A stretch of 64,000 bases of DNA, taken from NCBI GenBank assembly GCA_964016885.1, contig OZ024742.1, positions 109,616,001-109,680,000 of the forward strand. The letters are read 5' to 3'. How positions within the stretch are numbered: position 1 is the stretch's first letter; every line of letters starts with the position of its first letter. The notes beneath the pieces were generated by a model. It was not told the DNA's origin. It saw only the letters and a program-made list of their open reading frames with translations, and ran no database searches. Origin of the DNA: Eledone cirrhosa (Eukaryota). This document shows, in pieces, positions 15,708 through 45,929 of this stretch. The position numbers and the translations under genes are program-made.

Positions 15708-15920
15708 CGTTTCTGAATTTGTTTAGCAAGATTCTTTATCTGAAATCGTGTGTTGAAACCGATATTGTTATACTTTGGGAGGGTCATGTCGCCAATAAGA
15801 AACACACGCACCAGTTGCTTTCACTTCAATTTAATTTATTATATATTTATAAATTTACAAATTTATAAATTTCTGGTTGGTTGGTTGGTTCCACAACCAG
15901 ATAGTTGTTTATATATATAT

Positions 15921-15965
15921 AGTCATAGTTATTTCGTCACACACTCTGTGACCTCTTCAGTGACT
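15921..15965 (-). ncRNA. HHR motif, PLE1 left arm (stem III G>T change)
   Basis: agtca-CTGAAGA-ggtcac agagtgt gtgac-GAAA-taac-TA-tgact. Confidence 0.65.
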
Positions 15966-16248
15966 GGGGATTTCTTTCTTCGTTTCTGTGCCTTTCTTTT
16001 CTTCTATCCTACGCCATTTTGTTTGTGTGTGGGTTGCGTGCTCAGTTTGCGCATGCGCCACATCCGGGTGTCTGTGTGTGTTTGTGTTCATTTTTCTATT
16101 TTTCTATTTATATTTTTCTATTTGTTTGTTTATTTATTTATTTATTGTTGGTTGGTTGTTTGTTCTATGTGTGTGTGTGTTTTCATTTTGTGTGTGTTTT
16201 CAATTGTAAGTTGTTTGTTCTATGTGTGTGTGTGTTTTCATTTTGTCC

Positions 16249-16853
16249 TTAATTGTAAGTTGTGATGTTGCTGTTCCACTCATATTTTCTATTTAATTTT
16301 GGTTTTAATTCTTTTATGCTTACTGCCTCTGTAATTTGCCTAAACATTGCGTCTTTCTTGTGTGTGGATTCTATTTTTATTTCTATGCTCTCTATTTACC
16401 CCTGTGTTCTATCTTAGCATGTTGGTAGAGCACAGATGATTCTTTATTATCTTGGAGGTCTCGCCAGTGTTCATTTATTCGTTCCCCTATACTACGAGCT
16501 GTCTCACCTATGTACACTATATTTTTGTTTCTACATTGTCCTTCAGTACATCTTATGCTATATACTACATTTCTAGTTTTACAGTTAATATGGGGGCTTA
16601 TTTTACAGGTTATACATTTCTTATCTATACATGAGGGTCTTTGGAACGGGTATGTCTTGCTAATAAGTGTTTTTACGGAGGTACCAGGTCTTTCTACTAT
16701 CTTAATATTGAGATTATGTTTCTTTAGGGCCCTTCTAAATTTGTAGGCTAGTTCGCCTCTAGGGGTTGTATTGATGAACATTACACTCTGGTATTTATTG
16801 CTATCATACCATGAGTTTATTCTATTGGCCTTGTTCTTAGTTCTTTCTATTTC
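16249..16853 (-). pseudogene. PLE1 GIY-YIG endonuclease region, left-arm copy with 1-bp deletion
   Basis: Same peptide as the right arm plus the upstream NSWYD segment. Frameshifts after HRGK (tctatttacc versus expected tctaatttacc). Confidence 0.85.
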
Positions 16854-17409
16854 TAGCAATAAATACCAGAGTGTAATGTTCATCAATACAACCCCTAGAG
16901 GCGAACTAGCCTACAAATTTAGAAGGGCCCTAAAGAAACATAATCTCAATATTAAGATAGTAGAAAGACCTGGTACCTCCGTAAAAACACTTATTAGCAA
17001 GACATACCCGTTCCAAAGACCCTCATGTATAGATAAGAAATGTATAACCTGTAAAATAAGCCCCCATATTAACTGTAAAACTAGAAATGTAGTATATAGC
17101 ATAAGATGTACTGAAGGACAATGTAGAAACAAAAATATAGTGTACATAGGTGAGACAGCTCGTAGTATAGGGGAACGAATAAATGAACACTGGCGAGACC
17201 TCCAAGATAATAAAGAATCATCTGTGCTCTACCAACATGCTAAGATAGAACACAGGGGTAAATTAGAGAGCATAGAAATAAAAATAGAATCCACACACAA
17301 GAAAGACGCAATGTTTAGGCAAATTACAGAGGCAGTAAGCATAAAAGAATTAAAACCAAAATTAAATAGAAAATATGAGTGGAACAGCAACATCACAACT
17401 TACAATTAA
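16854..17409 (+). pseudogene. PLE1 C-terminal linker plus GIY-YIG endonuclease (Neptune-like; clade tentative)
   Basis: Cys-rich linker C-x4-C-x2-C-x7-C, NVVY..YIGET.R....R..EH, H...H, RQITEAV.I, LNRKYEW. No RT upstream (truncated). The N-terminus of the called ORF is palindrome-derived. Confidence 0.9.
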
Positions 17410-17692
17410 GGACAAAATGAAAACACACACACACATAGAACAAACAACTTACAATTGAAAACACACACAAAATGAAAACACACACACACATAGAACAAAC
17501 AACCAACCAACAATAAATAAATAAATAAACAAACAAATAGAAAAATATAAATAGAAAAATAGAAAAATGAACACAAACACACACAGACACCCGGATGTGG
17601 CGCATGCGCAAACTGAGCACGCAACCCACACACAAACAAAATGGCGTAGGATAGAAGAAAAGAAAGGCACAGAAACGAAGAAAGAAATCCCC

Positions 17693-17737
17693 AGTCACTG
17701 AAGAGGTCACAGAGTGTGTGACAAAAGAACTATGACT
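17693..17737 (+). ncRNA. HHR motif, PLE1 right arm (G12>A, probably inactive)
   Basis: agtca-CTGAAGA-ggtcac agagtgt gtgac-AAAA-gaac-TA-tgact. Confidence 0.6.
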
Positions 17738-17892
17738 ATATATATATAAACAACTACCTGGTTGTGGAACCAACCAACCAACCAGAAATTTATAAATTTG
17801 TAAATTTATAAATATATAATAAATTAAATTGAAGTGAAAGCAACTGGTGCGTGTGTTTCTTATTGGCAACATGACCCTCCCAAAGTATAACA

Positions 17893-23425
<5,533 letters not shown>

Positions 23426-24930: not shown

Positions 24931-25170
24931 CATTTGCATAGTCAGCATTCGTTGATGACGTGGTTAATTAAATAATGAATATTTATGAAGACCATAATGA
25001 ATATTAAAAATCAAATTAAGAAGAAATACTTAGTTTAAATTATAACCATCGCTTGTAACCAAATGTCAATACATTCCGTTATATTCCCCAGAAAATGCTG
25101 TGATTGTCTATATATAATTACAAATATTTCATCAATAAACGCTGCTTCTATTTATTTGTTTATTAATAAA

Positions 25171-25192
25171 TTTTCTTTTTTTTTCCTTTCAG
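25171..25192 (+). promoter_or_regulatory. Splice acceptor (polypyrimidine tract + CAG) immediately before the GPCR ATG
   Basis: ttttcttttttttcctttcag|ATG. Confidence 0.75.
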
Positions 25193-26245
25193 ATGTCTTA
25201 TCAAAGGCGGACGTTGCCCCCTCCATACTATCCGTTTAGGTTTAACAAGACTTACCTAGACTATCGGTATCGGTACGATCAACAATATGAAACGAAAGAC
25301 AATGGACCGTTCAGTATTTTCGCCACCACTGCGGCCCAACCTTCAGACACTGTCATAATTACGGACCGCTCTATAGCTGGTTGTGTGTGTTTGCTCAACT
25401 TCGTTCTGCTGTTAGCCTTATGTTGTGTGAAGGCAAAGGACAAAAAACTTTTCCGGTTACATTTAGTGAATTTAACACTAATTAGTATATTCACAGGTGT
25501 TGTTGTATTAGCCTATGCCTTGTTCGAGAAGGTCCAAGGTGTAAACCGTTTTGATAAGTTGACTTGCAAAATATTCGCCTTTGCTAAGTCGGTCCTCAAT
25601 GACGCTTTACCTCTCTGCCTTCTCGAAATACACCTTGACCGCTTCTTCTGTTTGATATCTCCAGACACGTACCGACATCCGGTACATCGCGCAATTGGTG
25701 CCATCATGGTGTTCATGCCTTGGGTCGTTGGTATGGCAATGACCCTGCCTGAGGTCATATTACAAGAGGTCACGCTACCTCTTCCTAATGAACGCTCATT
25801 GTTCGGTTGTAAACTTAACGACTCTGCTAACATGTATCGTTTAACGCAGATAGTTCGTTACATTCCTAGTGGCCTAGTGGTCATCAGCTTTCTACTGACC
25901 CTCATTGCTGTCATTGTACTCCTCTGTCCACATTGCTCGCCAGACAGAGATGATCGGGGTTCTCTACTAAACTCAATGGTTGCCCTTCTTTTGGTCGATG
26001 TATTCTTCTTCCTTATGCAAATGATTACGCGAACCATAAGTTTAGTGGCAGCCATCTGTCCAACGGGAGTGTGTACACGAGGATATTTCTATAAAATTCA
26101 TCAATTATTACTTTCAAAATGGTTACATAGTGCTAATCCAGGTCTAAATCCGATTCTATGGTTGTGCGATCGAGATATTCGACGTGGTTATCAAGCCTTG
26201 TGCTGCCTGGAGTGTATTACCAAGAAGAAGAGACGTACGGGTTAG
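25193..26245 (+). CDS. Orphan rhodopsin-like (class A) G protein-coupled receptor, 350 aa
   Basis: Seven hydrophobic segments. TM1 Asn (LLNF), TM3 Cys and HLDRF (DRY-like), TM4 Trp, ECL2 Cys, TM5 Pro (YIP), TM7 NPILW, helix 8 and C-terminal Cys cluster. Uninterrupted ORF in unique sequence. The true start could lie in an upstream exon. Confidence 0.9.
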   Translation: MSYQRRTLPPPYYPFRFNKTYLDYRYRYDQQYETKDNGPFSIFATTAAQPSDTVIITDRSIAGCVCLLNFVLLLALCCVKAKDKKLFRLHLVNLTLISIFTGVVVLAYALFEKVQGVNRFDKLTCKIFAFAKSVLNDALPLCLLEIHLDRFFCLISPDTYRHPVHRAIGAIMVFMPWVVGMAMTLPEVILQEVTLPLPNERSLFGCKLNDSANMYRLTQIVRYIPSGLVVISFLLTLIAVIVLLCPHCSPDRDDRGSLLNSMVALLLVDVFFFLMQMITRTISLVAAICPTGVCTRGYFYKIHQLLLSKWLHSANPGLNPILWLCDRDIRRGYQALCCLECITKKKRRTG

Positions 26246-33520: not shown

Positions 33521-33569
<49 letters not shown>

Positions 33570-33603
33570 TTAGAGCAATCACGGGCGCTCTATCTCAAAA
33601 TTA

Positions 33604-33639
33604 TTTTTGAAAAGCATTAGAAATGCGCAACCGGTAAAA
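33604..33639 (+). ncRNA. HHR-like motif with U3-A8 core (A13>C, degenerate)
   Basis: ttt-TTGAAAA-gcat tagaa atgc-GCAA-ccgg-TA-aaa. Confidence 0.55.
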
Positions 33640-33847
33640 CCTTAAAACTAAAACTGAATACTAACCAATACTTATTACTAATTTTTACTTATTCCTAATT
33701 AAACTATTTTTCATTGGGAACAATTTGTCAGCATTTTCTTTTCCTTTTACCAATATATCACAACTCGTGTGTCACACCTCTATTCTTTTAAATATGAGTA
33801 CTTTGGTGCGTTATGGTCCACCTGGTTCCTTACCACATTTCCTTCGT

Positions 33848-36557: not shown

Positions 36558-36623
36558 TATTTTGTCTGATGAAGGCATACCATATTTTTAATATGATAAC
36601 CCTGAAATATATATAATGAAATA
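36558..36623 (+). ncRNA. Type I HHR motif
   Basis: tattttgt-CTGATGA-agg...catat tttta atatg...cct-GAAA-tatata-TA-atgaaata. Confidence 0.65.
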
Positions 36624-45467: not shown

Positions 45468-45506
<39 letters not shown>

Positions 45507-45513
<7 letters not shown>

Positions 45514-45856
45514 ATGAAATCGAAAATGCAACTGGAGTCTTATTTTAAAAAAATATATATATTTATTTGGTTCCTTTACCGGTTTCGCAGTTCTTCTGCT
45601 TTTCAAAAGTAGAGTTGAGATGGAGGGTCTGTGGTTTCAGACAGGTCTCACAGATGTGAGAAAAACCACAGACCCTCCATCTCAACTCTACTTTTGAAAA
45701 GCAGAAGAACTGCGAAACCGGTAAAGGAACCAAATAAATCTATATTTTATTTTTAAATAAGACTCCAGTTGCATTTTCGATTTCATCTTTTTTTCTTTAT
45801 ACTTTCACTCGTGTAGGACACTTCGGTTATTTTTCATTTTGTAAGAAAAACCTCAC

Positions 45857-45862
<6 letters not shown>
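45507..45862. mobile_element. 131-bp-arm palindrome in (TA)n with a U3-A8 HHR in each arm
   Basis: Arms 45507-45637 and 45663-45793. The right arm continues to (TA)n at 45862. Confidence 0.85.
45691..45726 (+). ncRNA. HHR motif with U3-A8 covariant core (mirror copy 45574-45609, -)
   Basis: ctt-TTGAAAA-gcag aagaa ctgc-GAAA-ccgg-TA-aag. Confidence 0.7.

Positions 45863-45929
<67 letters not shown>

What the first reader, a model, noticed from the sequence alone, without database searches (positions are those of the whole stretch)
45574..45726. Hammerhead variant with UUGAAAA core (U3-A8) supported by covariation in a second locus
Seen: ctt-TTGAAAA-gcag/ctgc-GAAA-ccgg-TA-aag at 45691 and ttt-TTGAAAA-gcat/atgc-GCAA-ccgg-TA-aaa at 33604. 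Stem I (C-G to U-A) and stem II (G-C to U-A) both change compensatorily while the odd core is kept. Established: positions 3 and 8 form a Watson-Crick pair in the active fold, so U3-A8 can substitute for C3-G8. Standard CUGANGA searches would miss this family.
Basis: partly seen in the sequence, partly recalled or inferred. Interest (0 to 1): 0.75.

Follow-up and report, generated by a model that had tools for sequence, protein, structure and literature searches.

The report
Penelope retrotransposon's minimal U3-A8 hammerhead
This is a mirror-image stub of a Penelope-type jumping gene whose hammerhead-shaped RNA motif occurs about 26,000 times in this animal genome with a core variant already described in such elements; the motif likely cuts weakly at best, and most copies appear to have been made from uncut RNA.

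Summary
The motifs are real. 45574-45726 is a palindrome holding two inverted copies (+ core 45694, - core 45606); 33607 is a sister family. Both sit in the pseudo-LTRs of full-length Penelope-like elements (RT, CX4CxxC linker, GIY-YIG; Neptune type). The motif pattern has 26,092 hits in this 3-Gb genome, reversed control 0. The two families' RTs are 56% identical with saturated four-fold sites, yet the motif is 81% identical, so it is under selection. U3-A8 is not new: it was reported in nature in 2011 and in Penelope-like elements in 2014. Covariation is thin: one clean double change in helix I, while the helix II change passes through mismatched subfamilies, and 3-8 never covaries here. Of 100 copies, 85 run through the whole hammerhead, 42 starting at a predicted TATA/initiator start, so templates were mostly uncut; a peak at the cut site is inconclusive. 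This locus would fold as one hairpin and is predicted inactive. The scan noted similar stubs in other genomes. Verdict: new member of a known kind; useful for testing whether cleavage matters.

The parts
45652..45863 (+). Plus arm of the insertion: pseudo-LTR piece of PLE family 1 from the predicted transcription start to the long (tailed) 3' end, followed by (TA)n
   Evidence: 93% match to the pLTR of full-length copy L053 over window 45651-45869; ends match the two genome-wide end peaks
45691..45726 (+). Minimal type I hammerhead motif: helix I 3 bp, U3-A8 core (45694-45700), helix II 4 bp, GAAA, palindromic ACCGGU helix III, GUA triplet, predicted cut between 45723 and 45724
45574..45609 (-). 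Second, identical hammerhead motif on the minus strand (core starts at 45606)
45506..45637 (-). Minus arm: 5'-truncated inverted pLTR copy ending at the short 3' end in (TA)n
   Evidence: 91% match to L053 pLTR, window 45637-45500; arm comparison
45638..45651 (.). Junction filler between the arms (partly the reverse complement of the first bases of the plus arm)
   Evidence: sequence
45801..45863 (+). 'Tail' between the short (+109) and long (+172 to +178) 3' ends, present on one arm only
   Evidence: 36 of 100 copies end at +109 and 59 of 100 at +175 to +179
33567..33795 (+). Solo pLTR piece of sister family 2, from its predicted transcription start to its long 3' end
   Evidence: 96.6% match to pLTR of full-length copy L150
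33604..33639 (+). Family 2 hammerhead-like motif: U3-A8 core at 33607, A13C, helix I of three A-U pairs
   Evidence: 11,123 genomic matches, control 0

Best explanation
The locus is a mirror-image, promoterless stub of a Neptune-type Penelope-like retrotransposon whose pseudo-LTR carries a minimal type I hammerhead motif with a U3-A8 core, predicted to cleave only as a dimer and weakly, and predicted inactive in this copy. Shown: the motif lies about 170 nt upstream of the ORF start in both pLTRs of full-length elements, the stub sits in (TA)n, and its two arms end at the family's two fixed 3' ends. Inferred steps: (1) a CCAAT/TATA/initiator promoter in the pLTR starts RNA 42 nt upstream of the core; (2) the element's endonuclease cuts (TA)n on both strands and each DNA end primes reverse transcription at one of two internal sites (short end, long end); (3) the cDNAs run through the mostly uncut hammerhead to the RNA 5' end and join head to head, giving the palindrome; (4) in tandem or paired element RNAs the self-complementary ACCGGU forms a 6-bp helix III between two motifs, allowing slow, probably protein-assisted cleavage after GUA that would remove the 72-nt capped leader and is not required for insertion.
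For: Full-length copies pLTR-ORF-pLTR (L053, L058 and others; family 2 L150); RVT_1 (E 5e-6, below the curated cut-off) and GIY-YIG (E 8e-8, above cut-off); CX4CxxC linker in both families, the Neptune/Nematis mark (PMC8557442 passages). 26,092 matches vs 0 control. Motif 29/36 identical between families whose four-fold sites are 21/75 identical (P 4e-4 against the 52% downstream flank, 0.025 against the 64% promoter-side flank). TATA-like box 30-32 nt before a CAGAT start in 4 of 4 subfamily representatives; 42 of 100 copies begin at -45 to -37 and 85 of 100 include the whole motif. In 23 of 24 head-to-head pairs one arm has the short and one the long end (15 of 15 within 400 bp; counted by eye). 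Monomer hammerhead fold +2.4 kcal/mol against MFE -6.5; dimer fold -15.5, and -21.1 for the 4-bp-helix-I subfamily against a dimer MFE of -22.5. Literature: PLE minimal hammerheads cleave poorly and as dimers (PMC4209133); the Anolis PLE hammerhead needs the protein and is dispensable for insertion in vitro, with two internal RT starts bounding the tail (PMC11167929).
Against: No cleavage data and no RNA run was listed, so steps 1 and 4 are untested. Helix I is only 3 bp here (4 bp in one subfamily), shorter than the 4-5 bp reported, and the unpaired base after A9 and long helix II typical of minimal PLE hammerheads are absent. The family 1 tail (63-69 nt) is longer than the 30-40 bp described. 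None of the 20 fetched family 1 elements had an unbroken ORF (longest piece 613 aa). Clade assignment rests on the linker motif, not on a tree. A13C in 11,123 copies shows that the catalytic box is not strictly conserved.
Confidence: 0.7

Rival explanations
1. The motif is catalytically dead in both lineages and is kept as a structural element: the palindromic ACCGGU pairs two element RNAs, or the fold binds the RT-endonuclease, which would help the two-ended, head-to-head insertion.
For: A13C lineage spread to 11,123 copies with a three A-U helix I; its dimer hammerhead fold (-6.3) is far above its dimer MFE (-16.7), which still holds the ACCGGU duplex; ACCGGUA invariant in 8 of 8 subfamily representatives; 85 of 100 copies come from uncut RNA; arms pair short with long ends in 23 of 24 cases.
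Against: U4, G5, A6, A9, G12, A14, the 3-8 Watson-Crick pair and an H17 triplet are all kept over saturating divergence, more than a 6-nt palindrome needs; a related PLE hammerhead does cleave with protein help; junctions exactly at the cut site are somewhat frequent (66 vs 4 at +24).
Confidence: 0.22
2. An efficient ribozyme whose cleavage sets the 5' end of the transposition RNA.
For: The first base after the cut (+30) was the most frequent junction, 8 of 51; 66 genome-wide junctions exactly at +30; U3-A8 pairs were active in vitro according to PMC3088659.
Against: Only 3 of 100 copies begin at +29 to +32 against 42 at the predicted start; +32 has 50 junctions and +28 and +35 have 6 of 51 each; A/T microhomology with (TA)n pools two true positions at +30; the monomer fold is unstable.
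Confidence: 0.07
3. The hammerhead look is a coincidence of an A/T-rich repeat, and the locus is a fold-back element or microRNA-like hairpin.
For: The span matches miRNA hairpin models below their gathering scores; the single motif folds no better than shuffles (z -0.44).
Against: Position in the pLTR of full-length PLEs, where hammerheads are the rule; conservation above neutral sites; no terminal inverted repeats other than the inverted pLTR copy.
Confidence: 0.01

Closest known systems
Minimal type I hammerheads of metazoan PLE pseudo-LTRs, U3-A8 variant of Schistosoma mansoni Cercyon elements (Cervera and de la Pena 2014, PMC4209133; parts 1-2 of 4 read, supplements not opened)
   Same: Type I topology, U3-A8 core, short helix I, palindromic helix III/loop 3, G10.1-C11.1, position in both pLTRs, mostly solo or opposite-strand paired copies.
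   Different: Helix II is 4 bp with no unpaired base after A9 (7-8 bp and one unpaired base there); about 26,000 matches against about 1,300; a sister lineage has A13C fixed.
Poseidon element of Anolis carolinensis, PAc (Frangieh et al. 2024, PMC11167929; parts 1-2 of 4 read)
   Same: Two RT start sites bounding a tail, AT-rich targets, hammerhead near the pLTR-ORF junction, uncut RNA as the main template.
   Different: PAc has C3-G8 and its hammerhead overlaps the start codon; here the motif is about 170-200 nt upstream of the ATG, the linker is of Neptune/Nematis type and the family 1 tail is 63-69 nt.
Neptune/Nematis-clade PLEs (Craig et al. 2021, PMC8557442; 12 passages read)
   Same: C-terminal GIY-YIG, CX2-5CxxC linker, (TA)n targets, inverted 5'-truncated copy, tail at one end only.
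   Different: No tree was built, so Neptune versus Nematis is open; I found no paper describing these two families.
Natural U3-A8 hammerheads (Perreault et al. 2011, PMC3088659; passages read)
   Same: Same 3-8 substitution.
   Different: Those were seen as covariation against C3-G8; here U3-A8 is fixed in the lineage and C3-G8 copies (2) are at about chance level.

Membership tests
Hammerhead ribozyme (type I, minimal) | Core N3-U4-G5-A6-N7-N8-A9 with a Watson-Crick 3-8 pair | tested here: met
   U3-A8 at both loci; fixed in 8 of 8 subfamily representatives; U3-A8 is a published natural variant
Hammerhead ribozyme (type I, minimal) | G12-A13-A14 box (locus 45694, family 1) | tested here: met
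   GAAA at 45714-45717
Hammerhead ribozyme (type I, minimal) | G12-A13-A14 box (locus 33607, family 2) | tested here: not met
   GCAA; A13C in 11,123 copies; A13 is part of the consensus core in PMC3088659 and PMC7151607
Hammerhead ribozyme (type I, minimal) | A15.1-U16.1 pair and H17 cleavage triplet | tested here: met
   A-ccgg-U then A17 (GUA) in 8 of 8
Hammerhead ribozyme (type I, minimal) | Helices I and II closing the core, supported by covariation | tested here: inconclusive
   87.5% of cells paired, slid controls 22-55%; only 2 of 10 pairs change on both sides; helix II outer pair mismatched in 3 of 8; helix I 3 bp
Hammerhead ribozyme (type I, minimal) | Palindromic helix III/loop 3 allowing a dimer | tested here: met
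   ACCGGU; 6-bp intermolecular duplex in the dimer MFE of all 3 motifs folded
Hammerhead ribozyme (type I, minimal) | Site-specific self-cleavage | not testable with these tools
   Indirect test by 5' junctions inconclusive
Penelope-like element (EN+) | Single ORF with RT and C-terminal GIY-YIG endonuclease | tested here: met
   the copies read are broken by stops or frameshifts; RVT_1 score 26.7 is below the 29.6 cut-off, GIY-YIG 32.9 above 22.6
Penelope-like element (EN+) | Direct pseudo-LTRs flanking the ORF, holding a hammerhead | tested here: met
   L053, L058 (family 1), L150 (family 2)
Penelope-like element (EN+) | Inverted 5'-truncated copy and a tail at one end only | tested here: met
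   Window locus; 23 of 24 head-to-head pairs short plus long; tail longer than the 30-40 bp described
Penelope-like element (EN+) | Spliceosomal intron in the pLTR (some PLEs) | not tested
   No RNA run listed
Neptune clade | CX2-5CxxC linker between RT and EN (shared with Nematis) | tested here: met
   C-x4-C-x2-C in both families; definition from PMC8557442
Neptune clade | RT phylogeny | not tested
   No named reference PLE sequences were on hand
Animal non-LTR retrozymes | Non-coding head-to-tail tandem units, each with a hammerhead | tested here: not met
   The locus is an inverted pair; the family has coding full-length elements

The most novel reading that the evidence does not exclude
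The Penelope hammerhead works first as an RNA pairing device, not a cutter: a lineage with a catalytically broken core (A13C) spread to over 11,000 copies while keeping the fold and the ACCGGU palindrome, which would hold two element RNAs together so that both ends of a cut (TA)n target are primed, one at each RT start site, giving the head-to-head insertions.
Probability: 0.15. Interest if true: 0.7.

Novelty: new member of a known kind. Interest (0 to 1): 0.3.

Why it matters
The core variant and its link to Penelope-like elements are published, so the finding as posed is ordinary. What this genome adds is a large natural experiment on an open point, the role of hammerheads in PLE mobility (called unclear in PMC8557442): two sister lineages of comparable abundance, one with an intact and one with an A13C core, and genomic 5' ends showing that most insertions were copied from uncut RNA, which matches the in vitro result for the Anolis element.

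Tried and rejected
Rfam scan: only sub-threshold miRNA hairpin matches among the 150 rows shown; rejected as low-complexity and palindrome matches. C3-G8 relatives as proof of 3-8 covariation: 2 copies found against 111 C3.A8 and 66 U3.G8 single variants; about 0.28 expected by chance, P 0.03; of the 29 nearest relatives of one of them, 26 were U3-A8, 1 U3.G8, 1 U3.C8, none C3-G8, and 1 was mis-oriented and dropped, so I read them as decay. Splice-site reading of the CAG/ATGTGAG boundary: dropped in favour of a transcription start because of the TATA spacing; not tested with RNA. Cleavage footprint in 5' junctions: +30 highest (8 of 51) but +28, +32, +35 close, and 66 at +30 against 50 at +32 and 4 at +24; inconclusive. 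Expression: no RNA holder listed. Contig lay on four runs showed loose ends at the predicted start and at both 3' ends, nothing on expression. A canonical-core pattern with the same helix III gave 107 hits against 158 in the control: no enrichment. Lunse et al. 2017 and Przybilski and Hammann 2007 were not held; I saw only their citations, so an A13 variant or a cephalopod family may be described there or in the supplements of PMC4209133, which I did not open. Searches for A13C with hammerhead found no paper (one search listed one unrelated paper).

Full report
Observation. Both strings are in the window. A relaxed scan for type I minimal hammerheads gave four hits: 45694 (+), the same motif at 45606 (-), 33607 (+) and an unrelated canonical-core motif at 36566. 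The finding's span 45574-45726 therefore runs from one motif to its mirror image: the locus is a palindrome of about 130-bp arms between (TA)n runs, which folds into one hairpin (-121.7 kcal/mol for 45574-45723, z -19.9). Locus 2 has GCAA where the hammerhead consensus has G12-A13-A14-A15.1. Positions below are counted from U3 = 0, so the predicted cut lies between +29 and +30.

It is a repeat, in two sister families. DNA searches of the own genome (3.0 Gb, 1,796 contigs) returned 40 scored copies each, at 96-100% identity (328 candidates for locus 1; 1,597 for locus 2). A pattern covering both has 26,092 matches, reversed control 0; the A13C family alone has 11,123. The genome is rich in (TA)n and (TATG)n; an octopus-like animal is my inference, not a tool result.

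The repeat is the pseudo-LTR of a Penelope-like element. One family 1 locus led to an ORF start. Among 20 fetched 10-kb stretches several have the order pLTR, ORF, pLTR (L053, L058, L048, L050, L057), none with an unbroken ORF. The pieces give RVT_1 (E 5e-6, below the curated cut-off) and GIY-YIG (E 8e-8, above it), with a C-x4-C-x2-C linker between them. L150 is the same arrangement for family 2. Craig et al. 2021 (PMC8557442, 12 passages) give this linker for Neptune and Nematis, and describe the inverted 5'-truncated copy, the one-sided tail and (TA)n targeting. In L053 the core is at 2541, the cut after 2570 and the ATG at 2741.

Is the motif under selection? The two families' RT regions are 233/419 identical in protein and 21/75 at four-fold sites, which is saturation, while the motif is 29/36 identical, the downstream flank 37/71 and the 100 nt upstream about 64% (P 4e-4 and 0.025 against those flanks). 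The covariation itself is thin. In eight subfamily representatives 87.5% of cells pair, but only two of ten pairs change on both sides; the helix I change C-G to U-A is clean (one event), the outer helix II pair is mismatched in three of eight subfamilies, and the 3-8 pair is U-A in all. Two copies with C3-G8 exist against 111 C3.A8 and 66 U3.G8; 0.28 are expected by chance, and 26 of the 28 correctly oriented nearest relatives of one of them are U3-A8, none C3-G8 (one mis-oriented row dropped). I read these as decay, not covariation.

Which RNA was copied? I took the first 100 matches of a 32-nt anchor lying downstream of the cut (12,331 in the genome) and mapped their ends. 5' ends: 42 at -45 to -37, 33 further upstream (24 of them ran to where my extension stopped), 10 between -35 and -8, 3 inside the motif, 3 at +29 to +32, 9 further down. 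Thus 85 of 100 include the whole motif. The peak lies 30-32 nt after a TATA-like box, at a CAGAT, in four of four subfamily representatives, with a CCAAT box upstream in three; I infer a polymerase II start at -42, in line with promoters in pLTRs (review PMC6765202, section 11 part 2). 3' ends: 36 at +109 and 59 at +175 to +179, all in A/T repeats. In head-to-head pairs one arm has the short end and the other the long end in 15 of 15 pairs within 400 bp and 8 of 9 wider pairs (counted by eye); the window locus is of this kind. This matches Frangieh et al. 2024 (PMC11167929, parts 1-2 of 4): both target strands are cut and extended, RT starts at two internal sites bounding the tail, and uncut RNA is the main template.

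A footprint of cleavage? Among 51 junctions next to (TA)n between +6 and +36, +30 was commonest (8), then +28 and +35 (6 each) and +32 (5) (from the first 100 of 716 redundant matches, and biased towards inversions near the anchor). Genome-wide exact-junction patterns gave 66 at +30, 50 at +32 (many at a quasi-palindromic inversion centre) and 4 at +24. A/T microhomology pools two true positions at +30. This is suggestive at most; such copies are under 1% of the family.

Folding. The single motif folds no better than shuffles (z -0.44). The monomer hammerhead costs +2.4 kcal/mol against an MFE of -6.5; the dimer form, with ACCGGU paired between two molecules, gives -15.5, and -21.1 for the subfamily with a 4-bp helix I (dimer MFE -22.5); family 2 gives only -6.3 against -16.7. 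The window copy lacks the TATA box, and any read-through transcript holds one sense and one antisense motif in a long hairpin, so it is predicted inactive.

Known or new. Perreault et al. 2011 (PMC3088659, passages) report natural C3-G8 to U3-A8 covariation. Cervera and de la Pena 2014 (PMC4209133, parts 1-2 of 4) report U3-A8 minimal hammerheads in Schistosoma PLEs, about 1,300 hits with a dedicated descriptor, opposite-strand pairs 100-700 bp apart, and low dimer-dependent cleavage. Searches for these elements in octopus listed only Craig 2021, and A13C with hammerhead gave no paper; Lunse 2017 was not held and the supplements of PMC4209133 were not opened, so either could hold such variants. 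For bioRxiv 2026.07.22.740005 I saw the listing and two passages. Earlier scan notes describe similar U3-A8 PLE stubs in other genomes and two-ended hammerhead repeats in this one; they were seen after my reading was set.

Verdict. A real, selected, very abundant minimal hammerhead motif of a Neptune-type PLE, with a known core variant: new member of a known kind, interest 0.3. The A13C lineage and the uncut-template ends make the question of why PLEs keep hammerheads easy to test.

Noticed in passing
window 36558-36623 (+): A third hammerhead-like motif with canonical CUGAUGA core, 8-bp helix I (with G-U pairs), long helix II and palindromic UAUAUA loop III; probably the pLTR of another PLE family.
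   Followed up: no
window 15762-17896: Large inverted repeat (641-nt arms, 99%) around an inverted GIY-YIG fragment (16747-17409, Pfam GIY-YIG E 4e-5): another head-to-head PLE insertion.
   Followed up: partly
window 20624-22539 (-): Two ORF pieces that look like a PLE RT and GIY-YIG-type endonuclease of another clade (recalled resemblance; no Pfam hit).
   Followed up: partly
window 25139-26245 (+): Intronless 368-aa ORF with hydrophobic stretches that resembles a G-protein-coupled receptor (recalled resemblance).
   Followed up: no
L096-L098 and most rows: A separate repeat family with CUGAUGA and GAAACCGGUC whose helices do not close in type I order; earlier scan notes propose scrambled hammerheads in this genome, which may be this family.
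   Followed up: no
window 45809-45822 and 33766-33782: A short hairpin (GTGT-nnn-ACAC) in the tail is shared by both families although the surrounding sequence is not; a candidate signal near the RT start sites.
   Followed up: no
L295, L298, L308, L279: Intact motif followed by a second copy that begins exactly at the first base after the cut, inserted in the element's own internal (AT)n run.
   Followed up: partly
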